DNA of 64,000 nucleotides from Escherichia coli (GTDB lineage: Bacteria; Pseudomonadota; Gammaproteobacteria; Enterobacterales; Enterobacteriaceae), in the NCBI RefSeq assembly GCF_003019035.1, contig NZ_CP027447.1; one strand, given 5' to 3'. The translations under genes and the position numbers were made by a program. Shown piece by piece: positions 1-9,280 of this stretch. A model generated the notes under the pieces. The model had not been told where the DNA came from, did no database searches, and worked only from the letters and a program-made list of their open reading frames with translations. Each line of letters opens with the position of its first letter. Within the stretch, counting starts at the first letter, position 1.

Positions 1-48
1 CGTAAACGCCTTATCCGCCCTACGGGGTAGTGCTGTTCGTATGAGGCG
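1..48. repeat. Partial REP-like (repetitive extragenic palindromic) element at window edge, 3' of fbaB
   Basis: GC-rich imperfect palindrome resembling E. coli REP units (..ACGCCTTATCCG..CCTACGG..) immediately downstream of the fbaB stop; truncated by window start. Confidence 0.45.
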
Positions 49-50
49 TA

Positions 51-1103
51 TCAGGCAATAGTAATTTTGCTATCGAGATAAACGTCCTGCACGGCGTTAA
101 TCAGTTTCACGCCGTCAGCCATCGATTTCTTGAACGCCTTACGTCCAAGAATCAGCCCCATTCCGCCAGCGCGTTTGTTGATAACCGCAGTACGCACTGC
201 ATCGCTGAGGTCAGTTTCACCGCCCGCAGCACCGCCGGAGTTTATCAACCCAGCCCGGCCCATATAGCAGTTAGCTAACTGATAACGCACCAGATCAATC
301 GGGTTTTCGCTGGTCAATTTGCTGTAGACGCGATCGTCGGTATAACCGTAATTAATCGCTTTATAGCCGCCGTTATTTTCCGCCATTTTTTGTTTAACGA
401 TATCTGCACCTATGGTCGCCGCCAGATGGTTTGCCTGACCGGTCAGGTCGGCGGAAACATGGTAATCAACGCCATCTTTCTTAAAGGCGGAGTTACGCAA
501 ATAGGCCCACAGCACTGTCACCATGCCCAGCTCGTGCGCACGTTCAAAAGCCGCAGAAATTTCTTCAATCTGGCGACGTGACTCTTCCGAGCCAAAATAG
601 ATAGTCGCCCCAACCGCCACCGCGCCCATATTGAACGCCTGCTCCACGCTGGCATACAGCGTTTGATCGTAGGTATTCGGGTAACTTAGCGTCTCGTTGT
701 GATTAAGTTTGACGAGGAATGGAATGCGATGCGCGTAACGCCGCGATACCGATGCCAGCACGCCGTAAGTTGACGCCACGCAGTTACAGCCCGCTTCGAT
801 CGCCAGTTCAACAATGTTTTTCGGGTCAAAGTAGAGCGGGTTAGCGGCAAATGAAGCTCCGGCAGAGTGCTCAACGCCCTGGTCAACCGGCAGAATAGAA
901 AGATATCCTGTGCCAGCCAGACGCCCGGTGTTGTACAACGTCTGCATATTACGTAACACCGCTGGCGGGCGATTATTGTCAATCATCACGCGGTCTACGT
1001 AGTCATGTCCGGGGAGATAAAGCTGGTCAGAAGGAATAGTCATACAACGGTGCTGTAAAAGGTTGTCGGCGTCTTTGCCAAGCAACTGCGCAATATCTGT
1101 CAT
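51..1103 (-). CDS. fbaB: Fructose-bisphosphate aldolase, class I (350 aa)
   Basis: ORF 51..1175(-); mature protein begins [20 protein letters not shown] as recalled for E. coli FbaB; internal ATG (1101-1103) chosen over the upstream in-frame ATG at 1175. Confidence 0.93.
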
Positions 1104-1359
1104 TACTATGCTCCCGTAAATTCCGATTGGATATCGGCTATGGATTGTCCTGGCCCGCCTTTTGCGGGCAATCATAATCCTGGTCGTTACGGGCGAGTTT
1201 TTCCATCTTTTGGATGTTTTTTCAGCGTTTTCTGTTGGCTCGATTCATCAGAAAAAATGTTACAGCGGTCAAGCTTTCACCGCAAAGGTATTTAAAAGGT
1301 ATTATTAAGTGGTATTGTCATCGCGTACCTTACATTACCTGTCATGAAGGAATTAAAAG

Positions 1360-2637
1360 ATGAAAACAACAGCAAAGCTGTCGTTCATGATGTTTGTTGA
1401 ATGGTTTATCTGGGGCGCGTGGTTTGTGCCATTGTGGTTGTGGTTAAGTAAAAGCGGTTTTAGTGCCGGAGAAATTGGCTGGTCGTATGCCTGTACCGCC
1501 ATTGCGGCGATCCTGTCGCCGATTCTGGTTGGCTCCATCACTGACCGCTTTTTCTCGGCACAGAAAGTGCTGGCGGTATTGATGTTCGCTGGTGCGGTGC
1601 TGATGTATTTCGCTGCGCAACAGACCACTTTTGCCGGCTTCTTCCCGTTACTGCTGGCCTACTCGCTAACCTATATGCCGACCATTGCGCTGACTAACAG
1701 TATCGCTTTTGCCAACGTGCCGGATGTGGAGCGTGATTTCCCGCGCATTCGTGTGATGGGCACTATCGGCTGGATTGCCTCTGGTCTGGCATGTGGATTC
1801 TTGCCGCAAATGCTGGGTTATGCCGATATCTCACCGACGAACATCCCGCTGCTGATTACCGCCGGAAGTTCTGCTCTGCTTGGTGTGTTTGCGTTTTTCC
1901 TGCCCGACACGCCACCAAAAAGCACCGGCAAAATGGATATTAAAGTCATGCTCGGCCTGGATGCGCTGATCCTGCTGCGCGATAAGAACTTCCTCGTCTT
2001 TTTCTTCTGTTCATTCCTGTTTGCGATGCCACTGGCGTTCTATTACATCTTTGCCAACGGTTATCTGACCGAAGTTGGCATGAAAAACGCCACTGGCTGG
2101 ATGACGCTCGGCCAGTTCTCTGAAATCTTCTTTATGCTGGCATTACCGTTTTTTACCAAACGCTTTGGTATCAAAAAGGTATTATTACTTGGTCTGGTCA
2201 CCGCTGCGATCCGCTATGGCTTCTTTATTTACGGTAGTGCGGATGAATATTTCACCTACGCGTTACTGTTCCTCGGCATTTTGCTGCACGGCGTAAGTTA
2301 CGATTTTTACTACGTTACCGCTTACATCTATGTCGATAAAAAAGCCCCCGTGCATATGCGTACCGCTGCGCAGGGGCTGATCACGCTCTGCTGCCAGGGC
2401 TTCGGCAGTTTGCTCGGCTATCGTCTTGGCGGTGTGATGATGGAAAAGATGTTCGCTTATCAGGAACCGGTAAACGGACTGACTTTCAACTGGGCCGGGA
2501 TGTGGACTTTCGGCGCGGTGATGATTGCCATTATCGCCGTGCTGTTCATGATTTTTTTCCGCGAATCCGACAACGAAATTACGGCTATCAAGGTCGATGA
2601 TCGCGATATTGCGTTGACACAAGGGGAAGTTAAATGA
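1360..2637 (+). CDS. yegT: Nucleoside:H+ symporter-family (NupG/XapB-like MFS) transporter, 425 aa
   Basis: Long hydrophobic polytopic ORF; GAAGGA RBS ~9 nt upstream of ATG; recalled as E. coli YegT. Confidence 0.9.
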   Translation: MKTTAKLSFMMFVEWFIWGAWFVPLWLWLSKSGFSAGEIGWSYACTAIAAILSPILVGSITDRFFSAQKVLAVLMFAGAVLMYFAAQQTTFAGFFPLLLAYSLTYMPTIALTNSIAFANVPDVERDFPRIRVMGTIGWIASGLACGFLPQMLGYADISPTNIPLLITAGSSALLGVFAFFLPDTPPKSTGKMDIKVMLGLDALILLRDKNFLVFFFCSFLFAMPLAFYYIFANGYLTEVGMKNATGWMTLGQFSEIFFMLALPFFTKRFGIKKVLLLGLVTAAIRYGFFIYGSADEYFTYALLFLGILLHGVSYDFYYVTAYIYVDKKAPVHMRTAAQGLITLCCQGFGSLLGYRLGGVMMEKMFAYQEPVNGLTFNWAGMWTFGAVMIAIIAVLFMIFFRESDNEITAIKVDDRDIALTQGEVK

Positions 2638-3638
2638 AAACAGAACGTATTCTCGGTGCTCTTTATGGGCAGGCGTTAGGGGATGCGATGGGGATGCCCT
2701 CCGAGCTTTGGCCGCGCAGTCGCGTCAAAGCACACTTTGGCTGGATTGACCGTTTTCTGCCTGGGCCAAAGGAGAATAACGCAGCCTGTTATTTTAACCG
2801 CGCCGAATTCACCGACGATACCTCGATGGCGCTGTGTCTGGCGGATGCGTTACTGGAACGTGAAGGCAAGATCGATCCGGATCTGATTGGGCGTAATATT
2901 CTCGACTGGGCGCTGCGTTTCGACGCCTTTAACAAAAACGTACTAGGTCCGACCTCGAAGATTGCGCTTAACGCCATTCGCGACGGTAAACCCGTTGCTG
3001 AACTGGAAAATAACGGCGTGACCAACGGCGCAGCGATGCGCGTCTCGCCATTAGGTTGTTTGCTTCCGGCGCGCGATATTGACTCTTTTATTGATGATGT
3101 GGCGCTGGCCTCCAGCCCGACACATAAATCCGATCTGGCGGTTGCGGGGGCGGTAGTCATCGCATGGGCGATTTCTCGTGCCATTGACGGAGAAAGCTGG
3201 TCAGCGATTGTTGATTCACTGCCTTCAATTGCGCGACATGCTCAACAAAAACGCATCACTACCTTCAGCGCCTCACTGGCAGCACGTCTGGAGATTGCGC
3301 TGAAAATTGTGCGCAATGCCGATGGCACCGAATCCGCCAGCGAACAGCTTTACCAGGTCGTTGGCGCAGGTACCAGCACTATTGAGTCCGTTCCGTGCGC
3401 CATTGCGCTGGTTGAACTGGCACAAACCGACCCGAACCGTTGCGCCGTCCTGTGCGCTAACCTTGGCGGCGACACAGACACCATCGGTGCTATGGCGACG
3501 GCAATTTGTGGCGCGTTGCATGGCGTTAACGCTATCGATCCTGCGTTAAAGGCGGAACTGGATGCAGTAAATCAGCTTGATTTCAACCGCTATGCCACGG
3601 CGCTGGCGAAATATCGTCAACAACGGGAGGCGGTATGA
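2634..3638 (+). CDS. yegU: ADP-ribosylglycohydrolase-family protein, 334 aa
   Basis: ATG overlaps yegT stop (ATGA, translational coupling); recalled as E. coli YegU (ADP-ribosylglycohydrolase family). Confidence 0.9.
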   Translation: MKTERILGALYGQALGDAMGMPSELWPRSRVKAHFGWIDRFLPGPKENNAACYFNRAEFTDDTSMALCLADALLEREGKIDPDLIGRNILDWALRFDAFNKNVLGPTSKIALNAIRDGKPVAELENNGVTNGAAMRVSPLGCLLPARDIDSFIDDVALASSPTHKSDLAVAGAVVIAWAISRAIDGESWSAIVDSLPSIARHAQQKRITTFSASLAARLEIALKIVRNADGTESASEQLYQVVGAGTSTIESVPCAIALVELAQTDPNRCAVLCANLGGDTDTIGAMATAICGALHGVNAIDPALKAELDAVNQLDFNRYATALAKYRQQREAV

Positions 3639-4600
3639 GCGGCGCGCGATTACACACGCTGCTGCCTGAATTAACCACGCGTCAGTCGGTGATGGTCGTC
3701 GGCGCGGCGGTCATTGACGTGATCGCCGACGCTTATGCCCTCCCCTGGCGTGGGTGCGATATCGAACTGAAACAGCAGAGCGTTAACGTTGGCGGCTGCG
3801 CACTGAATATTGCCGTGGCGTTAAAGCGCCTCGGCATCGAAGCGGGTAATGCCTTGCCGCTCGGTCAGGGCGTGTGGGCGGAGATTATTCGCAACCGGAT
3901 GGCAAAAGAGGGCTTAATCAGCCTGATCGATAACGCCGAAGGCGATAACGGCTGGTGTCTGGCGCTGGTTGAGCCGGATGGTGAACGCACGTTTATGTCG
4001 TTCAGCGGTGTGGAAAATCAATGGAATCGCCAATGGTTGGCGCGATTAACCGTTGCACCTGGCAGCCTGCTCTATTTTTCCGGTTATCAACTGGCCTCGC
4101 CCTGCGGCGAATTGTTAGTGGAATGGCTGGAAAAGCTGCAAGACGTGACGCCGTTTATCGATTTTGGCCCACGTATTGGCGATATCCCGGATGCATTACT
4201 GGCGCGGATCATGGCCTGTCGACCTTTAGTATCACTCAATCGTCAGGAGGCTGAGATTGCCGCCGAACGTTTTGCTTTATCCGCAGAGATAACAACACTT
4301 GGCAAGCAATGGCAGGAGAAATTTGCCGCGCCGTTGATCATTCGTCTCGATAAAGAGGGCGCATGGTATTTCAGCAACGACGCTTCTGGCTGCATTCCGG
4401 CATTTCCAACGCAAGTTGTAGACACCATTGGGGCGGGCGACAGTCATGCCGGCGGCGTACTTGCCGGGCTGGCCTCTGGTCTGCCACTGGCGGATGCCGT
4501 ATTACTGGGCAATGCAGTGGCGTCGTGGGTTGTCGGGCATCGGGGCGGTGATTGTGCGCCAACGCGCGAGGAACTACTCCTCGCACACAAAAACGTATAG
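3635..4600 (+). CDS. yegV: PfkB/ribokinase-family carbohydrate or nucleoside kinase, 321 aa
   Basis: ATGA overlap with yegU stop; C-terminal DTIGAGDSHAGG motif typical of PfkB kinases. Confidence 0.9.
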   Translation: MSGARLHTLLPELTTRQSVMVVGAAVIDVIADAYALPWRGCDIELKQQSVNVGGCALNIAVALKRLGIEAGNALPLGQGVWAEIIRNRMAKEGLISLIDNAEGDNGWCLALVEPDGERTFMSFSGVENQWNRQWLARLTVAPGSLLYFSGYQLASPCGELLVEWLEKLQDVTPFIDFGPRIGDIPDALLARIMACRPLVSLNRQEAEIAAERFALSAEITTLGKQWQEKFAAPLIIRLDKEGAWYFSNDASGCIPAFPTQVVDTIGAGDSHAGGVLAGLASGLPLADAVLLGNAVASWVVGHRGGDCAPTREELLLAHKNV

Positions 4601-5320
4601 ATCGCTGCGACAGTGGCTGATGCTGTACTCAATAGGCCGTTGCTGTTGGTCAAGCGCCACTTGCTTGATCACCAGCACCGGTATTTTGCTATCTAACTGA
4701 ATATGTGACTGAAACTCGGCATCCGGCATCCGGGCGCTAACGCGGGAACGCGTACGTTGTGGGTAAATGTGCTGGCTGCGGAAGTAGTCATAAAGAGAAA
4801 TCCCGATGGCATCAACATCATGAATTAAATGTGCCGGAACCCACGATTCCTCAATCGATACCGCTTCTTCATCGACATAGCGAATACGCTTAAGCAAAAA
4901 GACATCACTTCCCGCTTCGACCGCCAGCTGCTGCGCAACTTCTTCGGGACATTTCACGACACGCTTGTTAACCCATAGCGTATCGGGCTTTTTCCCGCGC
5001 AATACCACCTGCTGAGAAAAACCTCGCGCTTCTTTCAACGAGTATTCGAAGATGTTGTTGATCTGCGTACCGTAACCACGCGAACGCGTCACCACGCCCT
5101 CTTCTTCCAGCGCCTGCATCGCCTTGCGCACCGTAATGCGCGAAACGCCGGTTAACTGACTTAAATCACGCTCACCGGGCAAAATATTGCCATGCTCCAG
5201 CACCCCGCTGCGCACGGCATTTTTTACCGTTTCGGCAAACTTAATATAAAGCGGCGTGTTATCCGCCGCTAAAATACGTTCGTTCAGTTGGGCAATCAGC
5301 TGGGTATGCGCTTGTTCCAT
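4574..5320 (-). CDS. yegW: GntR-family (HutC-subfamily-like) transcriptional regulator, 248 aa
   Basis: N-terminal winged HTH (..LPGERDLSQLTGVSRITVRKAMQALEEEGVV..) plus C-terminal effector domain; 3' end overlaps the yegV 3' end by 27 nt (convergent). Confidence 0.9.
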   Translation of the reverse strand: MEQAHTQLIAQLNERILAADNTPLYIKFAETVKNAVRSGVLEHGNILPGERDLSQLTGVSRITVRKAMQALEEEGVVTRSRGYGTQINNIFEYSLKEARGFSQQVVLRGKKPDTLWVNKRVVKCPEEVAQQLAVEAGSDVFLLKRIRYVDEEAVSIEESWVPAHLIHDVDAIGISLYDYFRSQHIYPQRTRSRVSARMPDAEFQSHIQLDSKIPVLVIKQVALDQQQRPIEYSISHCRSDLYVFVCEE

Positions 5321-5371
5321 TTGTCTTTTTCCTGCCGGGGAGTCTGGTGGGAGTATATCACTGCTTCTTAT

Positions 5372-6190
5372 TTAAGGCGTTTCTTTAATCCCATCAACGA
5401 ATCCCTGCAACTCCTCCTCTGTGCCATTAAACACATTAAAATCCACCGGACCATTAATGCCATCTACCTGCCCACGGTCGGAATGCTGCCAGAAGCGCCA
5501 GGCCATGCCGTCATTGTCCGGACGACGTTGATAGTAGTGAGCCACCCACCACGGATATTCATTGAAATAGCCCGCCAGATTCGTGTGATAAAAAACGGCT
5601 CCTGAGTAAATAATCGGCTTTTTCCCCGTACTTTTTTCGACCATTTTTAGCCACTGACTTACCCGCTTGCGTAATTCTTTTGCCGATAATTTTCCCCGTT
5701 CTTCTACGTCCAGCACGGCAGGGAAATCGCCTTGTGAGAAATCCACCGTTTGCAGAAATAATCTCGCCTGAACTGAAGCGGATACCGACGGGGAAAAATA
5801 ATGATACGCCCCGCGCAGCAGGCCATTTTCGCGGCTTAGTTGCCAGTTACGCGAAAAATAGGGGTCCACCAGCTTTTCGCCTTCCGTCGCCTTAATAAAA
5901 GCAAACTGTAAGCGGATACCGTTGTCGCGCATTTTTGCCACCCGCTGCCAGTCGATCCGCTCCTGCCAGCGCGAAACATCTATTCCGTGAATGGTGTAAC
6001 TGGCAGGAATGCGAATAGCAAAAGATTTGACTGGACGATAACCGTAGAAGTGGATGTAGTCTTTAATCTGAATTGCTGTCGAGTAGAAAAAATTCACCGT
6101 CTGACGCGGATAAATTGCAACGATGGAAATTAGCCCAAGAGCGCATAATAAAGCGGTGAATTTTTTTCGACTGGTGATTCTCAGCTGCAT
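5372..6190 (-). CDS. yegX: Glycoside hydrolase family 25 (lysozyme-like) protein with N-terminal membrane anchor/signal
   Basis: ORF 5372..6199(-); GH25-like protein recalled as YegX (272 aa); start set at ATG 6188-6190, alternative in-frame ATG at 6197-6199 gives 275 aa. Confidence 0.85.
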   Translation of the reverse strand: MQLRITSRKKFTALLCALGLISIVAIYPRQTVNFFYSTAIQIKDYIHFYGYRPVKSFAIRIPASYTIHGIDVSRWQERIDWQRVAKMRDNGIRLQFAFIKATEGEKLVDPYFSRNWQLSRENGLLRGAYHYFSPSVSASVQARLFLQTVDFSQGDFPAVLDVEERGKLSAKELRKRVSQWLKMVEKSTGKKPIIYSGAVFYHTNLAGYFNEYPWWVAHYYQRRPDNDGMAWRFWQHSDRGQVDGINGPVDFNVFNGTEEELQGFVDGIKETP

Positions 6191-6254
6191 TGGTTTCATC
6201 CCTGAATGTCAGCGCCAAAGACTGACAATAACCAAAGCAGCTATAGTAAGGTGC

Positions 6255-7055
6255 TCACCACCACGCGTGGAAGTGGTGAACCGGACCAATACCGTGACCA
6301 ACTTCCAGCGTGTCGGCCTGGGCTAACGCCGATGAAAGCCAGCTTTTTGCCTCCTGTACGGTGTCAGCCCAGTTTGTATGGCGCGGGCGTAGTGCAGCCA
6401 ACGCCGCAGAGAGCGTACAACCAGTGCCGTGGGTGTTTTTGGTCATAATGCGCGGTGCAGTAAATCGTTGTTCCCCCTCACGAGTAAACAGCCAGTCCGG
6501 GCTTTGCTCATCATCCAGATGACCACCTTTCATTAGCACTGCGCCACAGCCCATCGCCAACAGCGATCGCCCTTGTTCCAGCATTTCCTGTTCGGTGCGC
6601 GCGTGTGGCGCGTCGAGCAAGGCGGCTGCTTCGGGCAAGTTTGGCGTTATTAATGAAACATGTGGCAATAATCGACTGCGTAGCGTGGCAACTGCCGAAG
6701 GTGAAAGCAGCGGGTCGCCGCTTTTTGCCAGCATAACGGTGTCGAGTACCACGTTTTGGATCTGATAACGTTGCAACCGTTCTGCCACCGCTTCAACAAT
6801 ATCGGTTTCCGCCAGCATACCGATTTTAGTGGTATCGATTCGCACATCGCTGAACACCGAATCGAGCTGGGCGGCGACAAAATCAGGCTCAATGCGATAC
6901 ACCAACTGTACGCCACGGGTATTTTGCGCCACCAGTGCAGTAATCACTGAGCAACCATAAGCGCCAAGTGCCGAGAAGGTTTTAAGATCGGCCTGAATCC
7001 CCGCACCACCACTCGGATCAGTACCGGCAATCGTCAGAGCGTTAATTCGTTTCAT
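6255..7055 (-). CDS. thiD: Hydroxymethylpyrimidine / phosphomethylpyrimidine kinase, 266 aa
   Basis: Ribokinase-fold protein ([25 protein letters not shown]..); start ATG overlaps thiM stop (ATGA); recalled as ThiD. Confidence 0.95.
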
Positions 7056-7840
7056 GCCTGCACCTCCTGCGTCAATTGCCAGAGCGCATCAAGGAAATGT
7101 GGAACAAAACTGCCTGGCCCCTCGCTTCTGGCGACTGCGCGTTCTCCAGCTTGTTTCATCCAGTGACAGGCAAATGCGATATTTTCCAGCGTATCGCCTG
7201 GTAGCGCACAACAGGCAGCGACAACCGCCGATAGTGCACAGCCAGTTCCTACCACTTTGGTCATTAACGGATCGCCACCGTGAATGCCAATGATACGATG
7301 TCCATCGGTAACATAATCCACCTCGCCAGTGACCACGACAATTGCGCCAGTTTCCCGTGCCAGTGTTTGTGCAGCAGGTATCGCGTTAGCTGCGGCATCA
7401 GTGGTATCCACTCCCCGTCCACCATTAGCAACGCCAGCTAATGCCATGATTTCCGAAGCATTACCACGTATGGCGGTTGGCTTATGGGACAGAAGTTCCA
7501 CACAAAAACGGCGGCGATAATCGAGCGCACCAACCGCAACCGGATCAAGCGTCCAGGGCATTTGTGATCGTGTTGCTTGCTCAACGGCAGCACTCATCGC
7601 TTGCGCTCGTGGCTGCGTCAGCGTGCCAACGTTAATCAACAAGGCACTGGCGATAGCCGCAAACTGACTGGCCTCTTCGGTTTCGATAACCATTGCTGGC
7701 GATGCACCGAGCGCCAGCAAGGTATTGGCAGTAAAGGTTTGCACCACATCGTTGGTCATACAGTGCACAAGAGGGGAATGTTGGTGAAAAAGGTGTAACG
7801 CGTGCGCAGATTGCGCTGAACTCAGCAGGTCGACTTGCAT
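7052..7840 (-). CDS. thiM: Hydroxyethylthiazole kinase, 262 aa
   Basis: 262-aa ORF with AGGAG RBS; preceded by a canonical TPP riboswitch; recalled as ThiM. Confidence 0.95.
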
Positions 7841-7975
7841 AGTTTGCTCCTGCCATAACGTGAAGAAGCAATGACCTGGTGGTCCGTGACTTCCCTACGC
7901 TGGCATTATCCAGATCAGGTGATACGGGTATTTCTCAGCCTTTACGCAGAAGGGCACCCCGAGTCGTTTGGTTGC
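7841..7975 (-). promoter_or_regulatory. thiM 5' leader containing TPP (THI-box) riboswitch
   Basis: Minus-strand leader reads ..GGGGUGCCCUUCUGCGU.AAGGCUGAGAAAUACCCGUAUCACCUGAUCUGGAUAAUGCCAGCGUAGGGAAGUCACGGACCACCAGGUCAUUGCUUCUUCACGUUAUGGCAGGAGCAAACUAUG, the well-known thiM TPP aptamer with CUGAGA box and SD-sequestering expression platform. Confidence 0.9.
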
Positions 7976-8062
7976 GATAATAAATCGCAGAGGAGGATGG
8001 TAATGTCCAGCGCACGCGTTGTAAACGGGGAAAAACGGCGGTATTACAATAACGTTGTGAAA

Positions 8063-8335
8063 TTATTTGATATAAGAATCCAGCACCTTCAGAACGACAT
8101 CCAGATCTTCTTCACGTTTTAGCTCATCCCCCTGGTGAACGATGTGTTCCGTCAGATGGCCTTTAATCACTTCCCGCATCAGACCGTTTACCGCGCCACG
8201 GATAGCAGCAATCTGTTGTAAAACTGCAGCGCATTCATGCGGTTCGTCGAGCATTTTCTTGAGCGCCACGACCTGGCCCTGAATCTTACTGGCACGCGCT
8301 TTCAGTTTCTGTTTATCACGGATGGTATGAGACAT
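8063..8335 (-). CDS. rcnR: Ni(II)/Co(II)-responsive transcriptional repressor (CsoR/RcnR family), 90 aa
   Basis: 90-aa all-helical ORF divergent from rcnA; recalled as RcnR. Confidence 0.93.
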
Positions 8336-8383
8336 GGCAACACCTGGTTAACAAGAATATGAAAAATCATAGCACTATTAATC

Positions 8384-8418
8384 TACTGGGGGGTAGTATC
8401 AGGTACTGGGGGGGAGTA
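8384..8418. promoter_or_regulatory. Two tandem RcnR operator sites (TACT-G6/7-N-AGTA) in the rcnR-rcnA divergent promoter region
   Basis: TACTGGGGGGTAGTA (8384-8398) and TACTGGGGGGGAGTA (8404-8418): G-tract flanked by TACT/AGTA inverted repeat, matching the described RcnR recognition motif. Confidence 0.8.
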
Positions 8419-8455
8419 GAATCAGATTGCCGAATTAATACTAAGAATTATTATC

Positions 8456-9280
8456 ATGACCGAATTTACAACACTTCTTCAGCAAGGAAACGCCTGGTTC
8501 TTCATCCCCAGCGCCATCTTACTTGGTGCGCTTCATGGCCTGGAACCGGGGCACTCAAAAACGATGATGGCGGCGTTTATCATCGCCATCAAAGGCACCA
8601 TTAAACAGGCGGTGATGCTCGGACTGGCAGCAACCATTTCGCATACCGCAGTGGTCTGGTTAATTGCCTTTGGCGGGATGGTGATCAGCAAACGCTTTAC
8701 TGCTCAATCAGCAGAACCGTGGCTCCAGTTGATTTCCGCAGTGATCATTATTAGCACCGCGTTCTGGATGTTCTGGCGTACCTGGCGCGGCGAACGCAAC
8801 TGGCTGGAGAATATGCACGAGCATGATCATGAGCATCATCACCACGATCACGAAGATCACCACGACCATGGACATCATCACCATCACGAACATGGCGAGT
8901 ATCAGGATGCCCATGCACGAGCCCATGCCAATGACATTAAACGACGCTTTGATGGTAGAGAGGTCACCAACTGGCAAATTTTGCTATTTGGCTTAACCGG
9001 TGGCCTTATCCCCTGCCCGGCAGCAATTACCGTGCTGTTGATTTGCATTCAGTTGAAAGCCCTGACACTGGGCGCAACACTGGTCGTCAGTTTCAGCCTC
9101 GGCCTGGCGTTAACGCTTGTCACCGTAGGCGTTGGCGCAGCAATCAGCGTTCAGCAGGTCGCAAAACGCTGGAGCGGATTTAACACTCTCGCTAAACGCG
9201 CTCCCTATTTTTCCAGTCTGTTGATTGGCTTAGTTGGTGTGTATATGGGCGTACATGGCTTCATGGGCATAATGCGATAA
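8456..9280 (+). CDS. rcnA: Nickel/cobalt efflux membrane protein with His-rich cytoplasmic loop, 274 aa
   Basis: Polytopic membrane ORF with central His-rich segment (HEHDHEHHHHDHEDHHDHGHHHHHEHG) encoded by CAT/CAC-rich DNA ~8820-8900. Confidence 0.95.
   Translation: MTEFTTLLQQGNAWFFIPSAILLGALHGLEPGHSKTMMAAFIIAIKGTIKQAVMLGLAATISHTAVVWLIAFGGMVISKRFTAQSAEPWLQLISAVIIISTAFWMFWRTWRGERNWLENMHEHDHEHHHHDHEDHHDHGHHHHHEHGEYQDAHARAHANDIKRRFDGREVTNWQILLFGLTGGLIPCPAAITVLLICIQLKALTLGATLVVSFSLGLALTLVTVGVGAAISVQQVAKRWSGFNTLAKRAPYFSSLLIGLVGVYMGVHGFMGIMR

What the first reader, a model, noticed from the sequence alone, without database searches (positions are those of the whole stretch)
5372..6190. yegX: membrane-anchored GH25 lysozyme-like gene with no phage context
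GH25 muramidases are usually phage or prophage endolysins or autolysins. This one sits alone next to thiD, with an N-terminal hydrophobic anchor and no holin or phage genes nearby, so it may be a domesticated cell-wall hydrolase.
Basis: partly seen in the sequence, partly recalled or inferred. Interest (0 to 1): 0.3.

Follow-up and report, generated by a model that had tools for sequence, protein, structure and literature searches.

The report
E. coli yegX, membrane-anchored GH25 muramidase
This is yegX, a known but unstudied core gene of E. coli for a lysozyme-type cell-wall enzyme tethered to the inner membrane; it shows no sign of phage origin, and published RNA-seq suggests it is switched off with the neighbouring thiamine genes.

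Summary
Window 5372-6190 (minus strand) is E. coli yegX (b2102), 272 aa. It is full length in 5423 of 5426 complete E. coli genomes and RefSeq already annotates it as a GH25 protein. It has a basic N-tail, one hydrophobic helix (residues 11-27), a conserved 35-residue linker and a complete GH25 domain. The catalytic residues D71, D161-x-E163 and D250 are invariant in relatives. The AlphaFold model matches solved GH25 lysozymes. dN/dS of 0.08 against E. albertii indicates purifying selection. No phage genes lie within 9 kb.

The "domesticated phage lysin" reading is not supported. Nearest relatives are cellular proteins with the same anchor-linker-GH25 layout in Bacteroidota, two unnamed metagenomic contigs, some Salmonella and rare E. 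fergusonii. No phage record exceeds 41% identity, and the best one looks like a Bacteroidales chromosome fragment.

It also does not stand alone. It follows thiM-thiD with a 64-bp spacer and no terminator. In published RNA-seq its repression tracks thiD in three strains, so it is probably the last gene of the TPP-riboswitch-controlled thiMD transcript.

Most likely it is an accessory, inner-membrane-tethered periplasmic muramidase. Enzyme activity, topology and physiological role remain untested. The gene is already known, so interest is low to moderate.

The parts
5372..6190 (-). yegX coding sequence (272 aa plus stop); E. coli K-12 b2102
   Evidence: ORF list and translation. RefSeq annotates it as yegX, glycoside hydrolase family 25 protein. 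Full length in 5423 of 5426 complete E. coli genomes.
6199..6203 (-). Shine-Dalgarno AGGGA, 8 nt before the ATG at 6190. It abuts the upstream in-frame ATG at 6199, which is therefore an unlikely start.
   Evidence: Read from the sequence. The motif and spacing are conserved in E. albertii, E. fergusonii and Salmonella.
6161..6190 (-). Residues 1-10, MQLRITSRKK: basic tail with four Arg/Lys, predicted cytoplasmic by the positive-inside rule
   Evidence: Translation. The topology is inferred, not measured.
6110..6160 (-). Residues 11-27, FTALLCALGLISIVAIY: single hydrophobic helix, a predicted uncleaved signal anchor with no lipobox
   Evidence: Mean Kyte-Doolittle hydropathy 2.38. AlphaFold helix 8-26. 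An equivalent segment is present in all 21 aligned relatives and in 57 of 64 representatives.
6005..6109 (-). Residues 28-62: subfamily-specific juxtamembrane helix (28-47) and beta-hairpin (51-62) before the barrel
   Evidence: AlphaFold secondary structure. Y51, F57, I59 and P62 are conserved across relatives. Solved GH25 structures align only from about residue 65 onward.
5456..5983 (-). GH25 catalytic domain (Pfam PF01183, residues 70-245; the modelled barrel spans 67-254)
   Evidence: Pfam E=1e-54. PDB sequence matches to 2WAG (7.9e-34), 4KRU and 1JFX. Foldseek top hit 2WAG with TM-score 0.85 and rmsd 2.0 A.
5978..5980 (-). Codon for Asp71 (HGIDVS motif), the first active-site Asp
   Evidence: Codon check. 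Invariant in alignment A2.
5702..5710 (-). Codons for Asp161-Val-Glu163, the GH25 DXE catalytic motif
   Evidence: Codon check. Invariant in A2. Aligned with the DIE and DVE motifs of 4KRU and 2WAG. The role of the DXE motif is described in PMC7954357.
5441..5443 (-). Codon for Asp250 (VDFNVF motif), a conserved C-terminal active-site Asp
   Evidence: Codon check. Invariant in A2. Its equivalence to Cpl-1 Asp182 is from my own knowledge.
6191..6254 (-). thiD-yegX spacer: no terminator-like site; predicted RNA stems pair the yegX start codon
   Evidence: No terminator-like site on this strand in the spacer. Fold energy -30.6 kcal/mol, z=-3.0. Both arms are invariant across Escherichia species.
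6255..7055 (-). thiD, the upstream gene of the proposed shared transcript
   Evidence: RefSeq annotation. Its log2 fold changes track those of yegX.
7052..7840 (-). thiM, the first gene of the thiMD operon
   Evidence: RefSeq annotation.
7875..7971 (-). TPP riboswitch controlling thiMD and, by inference, yegX
   Evidence: Rfam RF00059, 72 bits against a gathering score of 54.3. It lowers mRNA of the whole thiMD operon through Rho-dependent termination (PMC5499598).
4574..5320 (-). yegW (GgaR), the downstream neighbour 51 bp after yegX; apparently not co-regulated with it
   Evidence: RefSeq annotation. Absent from the differential-expression lists that contain yegX, thiD and thiM. Its only reported ChIP target is yegTUV (PMC10819704).

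Best explanation
yegX encodes an accessory peptidoglycan N-acetylmuramidase (a GH25 lysozyme) held on the periplasmic face of the inner membrane by an uncleaved N-terminal signal anchor.

Shown here:
- The protein has a complete GH25 domain, the catalytic Asp/DXE/Asp set and a modelled GH25 barrel.
- It has a basic tail, one hydrophobic helix and a conserved 35-residue linker, and a large cellular subfamily shares this layout.
- It is under purifying selection and is a core E. coli gene.
- It has no phage context.

Inferred:
- The topology is N-terminus in the cytoplasm and catalytic domain in the periplasm.
- The short tether keeps the enzyme close to the membrane. It would then cut MurNAc-beta-1,4-GlcNAc bonds in membrane-proximal glycan (nascent or loosely attached strands) rather than dissolve the sacculus.
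- Hydrolysis would leave reducing MurNAc ends, unlike the anhydro-MurNAc ends left by E. coli's lytic transglycosylases.

Expression: yegX is most likely the last gene of the thiM-thiD-yegX transcript. [quoted passage not shown] A weak constitutive promoter in the spacer and an RNA structure over the start codon may keep output low.

History: the gene was probably already beside thiMD in the common ancestor of Escherichia and Salmonella. Its nearest named relatives outside those genera are in Bacteroidota.
For: Enzyme:
- Pfam GH25 at 1e-54.
- PDB sequence matches to 2WAG, 4KRU and 1JFX.
- AlphaFold model with mean pLDDT 86.7; Foldseek top hits are all GH25 lysozymes, TM-score 0.85 to 2WAG.
- D71, D161, E163 and D250 invariant; DXE role from PMC7954357.

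Anchor:
- Four Arg/Lys before a 17-residue segment with mean hydropathy 2.38.
- No lipobox, and the Cys is not conserved.
- The same architecture in 57 of 64 representatives.

Selection and ancestry:
- dN/dS 0.077 against E. albertii with dS 0.87.
- dN between E. coli and Salmonella is 0.22, against 0.24 for thiM next door.
- Full length in 5423 of 5426 genomes.
- The Salmonella copy sits on the other side of thiMD behind a decayed copy of the thiM leader.

Not phage:
- Neighbourhood has no phage genes.
- Phage collection maximum is 41% identity, and the best record looks bacterial.
- No PADLOC match.

Expression:
- No terminator-like site in the 64-bp spacer.
- yegX log2FC is -3.75, -6.42 and -3.80 against thiD -3.74, -5.56 and -4.09 in three strains, alongside thiCEFGH (PMC6729007).
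- thiM is also down, and yegW is not listed as changed.
- The riboswitch lowers mRNA of the whole thiMD operon (PMC5499598).
- RNA polymerase holoenzyme binding was mapped to the thiD/yegX spacer (PMC3946193).

Dispensable:
- Keio deletion mutants exist, with only mild drug phenotypes.
- The gene is deleted in the reduced-genome strain DGF-298.
Against: - No enzymatic, localisation or morphology data for YegX turned up in the paper library, so activity, substrate and topology are predictions.
- Cleavage by signal peptidase after Ala25 (IVA|IY) cannot be excluded. That would give a soluble periplasmic enzyme.
- Co-transcription rests on one RNA-seq study with three strains and on the lack of a terminator. 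No transcript spanning the thiD-yegX junction was seen here.
- An independent promoter responding to the same medium shift is possible.
- From my own knowledge, reducing-end muropeptides are not a reported feature of E. coli sacculi, so activity in vivo may be very low or conditional.
Confidence: 0.6

Rival explanations
1. It is a domesticated phage endolysin, possibly of the signal-arrest-release (SAR) type. The N-terminal helix would leave the membrane on depolarisation and free the enzyme to lyse the cell, as the remnant of a prophage lysis cassette.
For: GH25 domains are common in phage endolysins; PHROGs endolysin families match at up to 8e-47. An N-terminal helix joined directly to a muralytic domain resembles SAR endolysins such as P1 Lyz. 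On a crude hydrophobicity sum the YegX helix (-1.65) is not far from the P1 SAR helix (-0.17).
Against: - No holin, pinholin, spanin or other phage gene lies within 9 kb.
- No phage record exceeds 41% identity and none is a coliphage; the best one looks like a Bacteroidales chromosome fragment.
- The anchor-linker-GH25 layout is shared by cellular proteins across Bacteroidota and by most of the nearest cluster representatives.
- Family helices are rich in Leu/Ile/Val/Phe, with Gly/Ala/Ser/Thr at 6-41%, against 47% and a GGG run in P1 Lyz.
- The very strong match to phrog_23704 (1e-82, a 134-aa family of unknown function) covers only residues 153-272. It looks like a host gene fragment swept into a prophage prediction.
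Confidence: 0.05
2. The enzyme is the same, but the N-terminal segment is a cleavable signal peptide, so mature YegX is a soluble periplasmic lysozyme able to reach the whole sacculus.
For: The n-region and h-region resemble a Sec signal peptide, and Ile23-Val24-Ala25 could serve as a -3/-1 site.
Against: The candidate site sits at the end of the hydrophobic core with no polar c-region. Most relatives have no small-residue site at the equivalent place, for example LLILSPFYYG. The helix plus a conserved linker is retained across the family, which is more typical of an anchor. No signal-peptide predictor was available here.
Confidence: 0.15
3. The GH25 fold is used on something other than the cell's own peptidoglycan. 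It could act on another N-acetyl-hexosamine glycan or on imported wall fragments from other bacteria, or it could be a binding protein with little catalytic turnover.
For: - GH25-like folds of other or unknown function appear among the structural matches (Rv2525c, GHIP).
- In Pedobacter-type genomes the homologue sits between an M20 dipeptidase and a dipeptide-epimerase-like gene. That hints at wall-fragment catabolism rather than growth.
- Deletion gives no strong phenotype.
Against: All catalytic residues are invariant and under purifying selection. All characterised GH25 enzymes cited here are muramidases (PMC7954357). The Pedobacter synteny is confined to one family and absent from Chitinophagaceae, Mucilaginibacter and Enterobacteriaceae.
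Confidence: 0.12
4. The tie to thiMD is functional rather than an accident of read-through. YegX would be made on purpose during thiamine starvation, for wall remodelling or controlled lysis that helps vitamin acquisition or cross-feeding.
For: yegX repression equals that of thiD in three strains. The gene stays next to thiMD in E. coli, E. albertii, E. fergusonii and Salmonella.
Against: Adjacency in close relatives is explained by common descent. In Salmonella the upstream riboswitch copy is decayed and undetectable by Rfam even at E<=1, so TPP control has probably not been preserved there. No thi genes flank the Bacteroidota homologues. No biochemical link between a muramidase and thiamine salvage is known to me.
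Confidence: 0.07

Closest known systems
GH25 (Chalaropsis-type) lysozymes with solved structures: Bacillus anthracis BaGH25c (2WAG), Streptomyces Cellosyl (1JFX), Clostridium phage phiSM101 Psm (4KRU/4KRT)
   Same: Same catalytic domain. Sequence matches at 7.9e-34 to 1.5e-26. Foldseek TM-score 0.79-0.85 on the target over about 200-220 aligned columns at 30-33% identity. The DXE motif and flanking Asp residues are aligned.
   Different: Those enzymes are secreted or phage-released, and some carry cell-wall-binding repeats. YegX instead has a basic tail, one membrane helix and a conserved 35-residue juxtamembrane module (residues 28-62) that the solved structures lack. It also comes from a Gram-negative bacterium.
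YegX-like membrane-anchored GH25 proteins of Bacteroidota (Pedobacter, Mucilaginibacter, Solitalea, Chitinophagaceae and a gut Bacteroidales-like contig)
   Same: Same full-length architecture and length (about 260-300 aa). They are 43-57% identical over up to 97% of the protein, and the linker residues Y51, F57, I59 and P62 are conserved.
   Different: Different phylum and genomic context. Many Pedobacter-type loci place the gene between an M20 dipeptidase and a dipeptide-epimerase-like gene. In Enterobacteriaceae it is next to thiMD. None of these proteins turned up as characterised in the searches made.
SAR endolysins such as phage P1 Lyz
   Same: An N-terminal membrane helix is fused directly to a muralytic domain that works in the periplasm.
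   Different: P1 Lyz has a different catalytic family (from my own knowledge). It sits in a phage lysis cassette with holin and antiholin genes. Its helix is rich in Gly and Ala (47% Gly/Ala/Ser/Thr with a GGG run, against 35% for YegX). YegX has no lysis partners.
MltG, the inner-membrane-anchored glycan-strand-cleaving enzyme of E. coli (comparison from my own knowledge, not tested here)
   Same: Same presumed topology, a single N-terminal helix with a periplasmic glycan-cleaving domain held near the membrane. This makes it the best functional analogy for how a tethered enzyme could act on nascent strands.
   Different: MltG is a lytic transglycosylase with a YceG fold and gives anhydro-MurNAc ends. 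YegX is predicted to be a hydrolase that gives reducing MurNAc ends. There is no sequence relationship.

Membership tests
Glycoside hydrolase family 25 (CAZy GH25, Pfam PF01183) | Significant match to the family profile over the full domain | tested here: met
   PF01183 at E=1e-54, 186.1 bits against a cutoff of 27, profile positions 1-180 of 180.
Glycoside hydrolase family 25 (CAZy GH25, Pfam PF01183) | Catalytic DXE motif plus conserved N- and C-terminal Asp residues | tested here: met
   D161-V-E163, D71 and D250 are present, invariant in 21 relatives and aligned with the DXE of 2WAG and 4KRU. The motif is defined in PMC7954357.
Glycoside hydrolase family 25 (CAZy GH25, Pfam PF01183) | [quoted passage not shown] | tested here: met
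   The test used a predicted model only: AlphaFold mean pLDDT 86.7, with 10-residue block means of 91-98 across residues 71-210. The top 17 Foldseek hits are all GH25 structures, with TM-score 0.85 to 2WAG.
Glycoside hydrolase family 25 (CAZy GH25, Pfam PF01183) | Beta-1,4-N-acetylmuramidase activity on peptidoglycan | not testable with these tools
   This needs an enzyme assay. No published assay of YegX was found.
Prophage or phage lysis cassette endolysin | Adjacent holin, spanin or other phage genes | tested here: not met
   RefSeq annotation 9 kb to either side shows only metabolic, transporter, regulator and fimbrial genes.
Prophage or phage lysis cassette endolysin | Close homologues in phage genomes | tested here: not met
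   All 161 matching phage records are below 60% identity and the best is 41%. That best record is unverified and carries bacterial housekeeping and outer-membrane genes by my reading of its ORFs.
SAR (signal-arrest-release) endolysin | Weakly hydrophobic, Gly/Ala-rich N-terminal helix able to leave the membrane | tested here: inconclusive
   The YegX helix has 35% Gly/Ala/Ser/Thr and a hydrophobicity sum of -1.65, against 47% and -0.17 for P1 Lyz. Family values overlap, and the scale values were recalled from memory. The result leans against membership.
SAR (signal-arrest-release) endolysin | Partner pinholin or holin | tested here: not met
   None is annotated nearby.
Bacterial lipoprotein | Lipobox [LVI][ASTVI][GAS]C at the end of the signal sequence | tested here: not met
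   The residues before Cys16 are A-L-L, so position -1 is Leu. The Cys is absent or shifted in E. fergusonii-type, Salmonella and Bacteroidota relatives.
thiMD operon (TPP-riboswitch regulon) | Same strand, short spacer and no terminator between thiD and the gene | tested here: met
   The spacer is 64 bp and has no terminator-like site on the minus strand. The spacer hairpin has no U-tract.
thiMD operon (TPP-riboswitch regulon) | Expression follows thiD and other TPP-controlled genes | tested here: met
   From published RNA-seq only: yegX -3.75, -6.42 and -3.80 against thiD -3.74, -5.56 and -4.09, with thiCEFGH also repressed.
thiMD operon (TPP-riboswitch regulon) | A single transcript spans thiD and yegX, and its level depends on the riboswitch | not testable with these tools
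   This needs RT-PCR, Northern analysis or long-read RNA data. PMC5499598 probed only thiM and thiD.

The most novel reading that the evidence does not exclude
YegX would be E. coli's only true hydrolytic lysozyme acting on its own wall. Its coupling to the TPP riboswitch would be physiologically meaningful: thiamine starvation would switch on a membrane-tethered muramidase. That enzyme would remodel or partly open the sacculus, or release reducing-end muropeptides. This would link vitamin status to cell-wall turnover, lysis or cross-feeding in the gut.
Probability: 0.08. Interest if true: 0.55.

Novelty: already known. Interest (0 to 1): 0.25.

Why it matters
From my own knowledge, E. coli is usually described as cutting its glycan strands with lytic transglycosylases rather than lysozymes. 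Yet nearly every strain keeps an intact GH25 muramidase gene under purifying selection, and no study of it turned up. Three points could make it tractable:
- It belongs to a large cellular family of membrane-anchored GH25 enzymes.
- It has no detectable phage ancestry.
- It is probably expressed only when thiamine is scarce.

Standard rich media contain thiamine and would silence the gene, which may explain the lack of phenotypes. The practical message is to look for its activity and phenotype in thiamine-free medium. The annotation itself is not new.

Tried and rejected
- NCBIfam gave no match for YegX and PADLOC gave none, so there is no curated equivalog and no defence-system link.
- Paper searches for yegX, b2102, P76421, ECK2095 and JW2089 found no dedicated study. 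They returned only screen tables, transcriptome tables and unrelated text matches.
- A search on GH25, E. coli and periplasm found nothing about this protein.
- The ground-beef transcriptome that lists yegX as up 2.3-fold does not mention thi genes, so it could not serve as a second test of co-regulation.
- I could not name the organisms behind the two metagenomic contigs carrying 54-56% identical homologues (L084, L085; Fnr/Crp-like regulator, HemN-like, response regulator, Hpt and DnaB neighbours).
It therefore cannot prove absence from other Enterobacteriaceae; it did not list Salmonella enterica or E. fergusonii, which were found through other look-ups.
- The M20 peptidase next to the homologue in L085 belongs to a different M20 subfamily from the Pedobacter dipeptidase. 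The apparent cross-phylum synteny was dropped.
- A second TPP riboswitch in front of the Salmonella gene was rejected. Only a decayed 3' half remains, and Rfam finds nothing there even at E<=1.
- The simple hydrophobicity comparison with the P1 Lyz SAR helix did not separate the two classes cleanly.
- No maximum-likelihood phylogeny was built, so the direction and date of any transfer between Bacteroidota and Proteobacteria remain open.
Full report
**What is there**

The window is E. coli chromosome. Positions 4500-7900 match strain SCU-301 at 100% and occur in 5424 of 5426 complete E. coli genomes. The finding's coordinates, 5372-6190 on the minus strand, are exactly the RefSeq gene yegX, annotated as "glycoside hydrolase family 25 protein".

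The mechanical ORF runs on to 6199 and would add Met-Lys-Pro. An AGGGA Shine-Dalgarno at 6199-6203 abuts that first ATG and sits 8 nt before the ATG at 6190. The same arrangement is kept in E. albertii, E. fergusonii and Salmonella. The 272-aa product is therefore the likely one.

Transcription order on the minus strand is:
- TPP riboswitch, 7875-7971 (Rfam, 72 bits)
- thiM
- thiD
- a 64-bp spacer
- yegX
- a 51-bp spacer
- yegW

The yegTUV operon converges from the other side.

**The protein**

Pfam Glyco_hydro_25 covers its whole 180-position profile at E=1e-54. The best solved relatives are the Bacillus anthracis GH25 lysozyme 2WAG (7.9e-34), the Clostridium phage phiSM101 lysin 4KRU and Streptomyces Cellosyl 1JFX.

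An AlphaFold model built on 21 relatives has mean pLDDT 86.7, with 10-residue block means of 91-98 across residues 71-210. Its top 17 Foldseek hits in the PDB are all GH25 enzymes, led by 2WAG at TM-score 0.85 and rmsd 2.0 A.

The catalytic DXE motif (D161-V-E163) and the flanking Asp71 and Asp250 are present. They are invariant across the alignment and align with the DXE of the solved enzymes. The motif's catalytic role is described in PMC7954357.

Ahead of the barrel lie three elements:
- a basic tail, MQLRITSRKK
- a 17-residue hydrophobic helix, FTALLCALGLISIVAIY (mean hydropathy 2.38)
- a helix plus beta-hairpin module, residues 28-62

The solved GH25 enzymes lack that module, and its residues Y51, F57, I59 and P62 are conserved in relatives. 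There is no lipobox and no clear signal-peptidase site. By the positive-inside rule the N-terminus is cytoplasmic and the enzyme periplasmic. This is an inference.

**A maintained gene**

yegX is full length in 5423 of 5426 complete E. coli genomes. Against E. albertii, dN/dS is 0.077 at an unsaturated dS of 0.87.

It is nevertheless dispensable in the laboratory:
- Keio deletion mutants exist and show only mild boric-acid and epetraborole sensitivity.
- The reduced-genome strain DGF-298 lacks the gene.

GC content is 48% against 50.7% for the window, so there is no sign of recent import.

**Where it comes from**

The nearest named relatives outside Escherichia and Shigella are Bacteroidota: Pedobacter, Mucilaginibacter, Solitalea, Chitinophagaceae and Saprospiraceae. 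They are 43-57% identical across nearly the whole length, anchor and linker included.

Three unlabelled closer clusters were resolved:
- A 268-aa protein at 68% identity belongs to Salmonella enterica, with named members in subspecies indica, salamae and enterica.
- A 282-aa protein at 78% belongs to rare E. fergusonii strains.
- Two contigs from unnamed bacteria carry homologues at 54-56% identity. Their neighbours are an Fnr/Crp-like regulator, a HemN-like enzyme and DnaB.

In Salmonella the gene sits on the other side of thiMD, between rcnB and thiM. About 210 nt upstream lies a decayed copy of the thiM leader. This copy keeps the 3' half of the TPP aptamer and the thiM ribosome site, with the start codon mutated to CTG. 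The intact riboswitch still precedes thiM. This fits a local duplication and deletion that moved the gene.

dN between E. coli and Salmonella is 0.22, similar to 0.24 for thiM next door. Together these points suggest the gene was already beside thiMD in the common ancestor of the two genera.

Family-wide figures:
- 24,108 cluster representatives match at E<=0.001, and 1,126 at E<=1e-30.
- Among the nearest 150, 57 of 64 full-length single-domain proteins have an N-terminal hydrophobic segment.
- That segment lies ahead of the HGIDVS active-site motif, a median of 67 residues from the protein's start.

The anchored layout is therefore a widespread cellular design.

**Not a phage gene**

- No phage, holin or spanin gene lies within 9 kb.
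- In 50,697 phage records every match is below 60% identity and the best is 41%.
- That best record is an "UNVERIFIED Bacteriophage sp." faecal contig. By my reading of its ORFs, the other genes are a PrmA-like methyltransferase and outer-membrane proteins, so it looks like a Bacteroidales chromosome fragment.
- PHROGs endolysin families match the domain, as expected for a shared fold.
- The strongest PHROGs match is a 134-aa family of unknown function, at 1e-82 over residues 153-272. It looks like a host-gene fragment captured in a prophage prediction.
- A comparison of the helix with the SAR helix of P1 Lyz leaned against a SAR mechanism but was not decisive.

**Regulation, the one unexpected point**

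In fact no terminator-like site separates it from thiD.

[quoted passage not shown] It lists yegX among the 20 most repressed shared genes (PMC6729007):

| Gene | Strain 1 | Strain 2 | Strain 3 |
|---|---|---|---|
| yegX (log2FC) | -3.75 | -6.42 | -3.80 |
| thiD (log2FC) | -3.74 | -5.56 | -4.09 |

The genes thiC, thiE, thiF, thiG and thiH are repressed alongside. In the supplementary lists thiM is also down, and yegW does not appear as changed.

The thiM riboswitch is known to lower mRNA of the whole thiMD operon through Rho-dependent termination and decay (PMC5499598). The simplest reading is that yegX is the distal gene of that transcript and is silenced when thiamine is available.

Two further details bear on expression:
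- RNA polymerase holoenzyme binding was mapped in vitro to the thiD/yegX spacer (PMC3946193), so a basal promoter may also exist.
- The spacer RNA is predicted to fold at -30.6 kcal/mol (z=-3.0), with a stem pairing the yegX start codon. Both arms are invariant across Escherichia species, so covariation cannot be tested.

YegW's only reported ChIP target is yegTUV (PMC10819704).

**Verdict**

The domestication story is only partly supported. yegX is a maintained chromosomal wall hydrolase gene, but it belongs to a cellular family of membrane-anchored GH25 enzymes with no detectable phage ancestry.

The most likely mechanism is a periplasmic, inner-membrane-tethered muramidase. It would cut membrane-proximal glycan and be expressed at low level, mainly under thiamine limitation. 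Activity, topology and role are untested, and I found no study of them.

Novelty is "already known". Interest is low to moderate. The practical lead is that experiments should be done in thiamine-free medium.

Noticed in passing
L002 (Salmonella enterica contig) 7626-7800, with the GH25 gene at 8001-8807 and the intact riboswitch at 9002-9098: A decayed duplicate of the thiM leader lies upstream of the Salmonella yegX homologue. It keeps the 3' half of the TPP aptamer and the thiM ribosome site, with the start codon changed from ATG to CTG. The homologue sits between rcnB and thiM rather than after thiD. This looks like the scar of a duplication and deletion that moved the gene.
   Followed up: partly
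window 6191-6254 (minus strand): The thiD-yegX spacer RNA is predicted to fold at -30.6 kcal/mol (z=-3.0). A long stem, AGCUGCUUUGGUU with AACCAAUGCAGCU, pairs the yegX start codon. Both arms are invariant in E. coli, E. albertii and E. fergusonii. A C-to-A mutation reported in one heat-evolved lineage (PMC12812777, -36/+29) maps to window 6226, inside the inner hairpin.
   Followed up: partly
Loci L008, L013, L023, L025, L030, L039, L042, L052, L056, L072 and other Pedobacter-type loci, genes flanking the match at 8001: In many Sphingobacteriaceae the YegX-like gene lies between an M20 dipeptidase and a convergent enolase-superfamily gene. The dipeptidase passes the NCBIfam NF006053 cutoff. 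The enolase-superfamily gene's best models are L-Ala-D/L-Glu epimerases, below cutoff. DUF255 and FKBP genes follow. This hints at peptidoglycan-peptide catabolism. The arrangement is absent from the Chitinophagaceae, Mucilaginibacter and Saprospiraceae loci.
   Followed up: partly
L087 (GenBank MT838172.1, 'UNVERIFIED: Bacteriophage sp.'), 1-5594: This is the best 'phage' match to YegX. It carries a 282-aa anchored GH25 gene beside what I read as a PrmA-like methyltransferase and outer-membrane proteins. It is probably a Bacteroidales chromosome fragment filed among phages.
   Followed up: partly
PHROGs family phrog_23704, matched by YegX residues 153-272 (window 5375-5734): A 134-aa PHROG of unknown function matches the C-terminal half of YegX at 1e-82. 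It is most likely a truncated host yegX swept into a prophage prediction, which could mislead automated phage annotation.
   Followed up: no
L003 (E. fergusonii-type contig) 2631-9226: In rare E. fergusonii strains the yegX homologue is followed by two large DUF6493/DUF7824/DUF7825 genes and a gene with a weak SWIM match, in place of yegW and yegTUV. The next similarity to the window is to the fbaB region, at 88% identity.
   Followed up: no
window 4574-4600: The 3' ends of the convergent genes yegV (3635-4600, plus strand) and yegW (4574-5320, minus strand) overlap by 27 bp.
   Followed up: no
Homologue list (P0014, P0020, P0071): Several Shigella entries for this protein are truncated (185-239 aa). 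This may be gene decay in Shigella, in contrast with the near-universal intact gene in E. coli.
   Followed up: no
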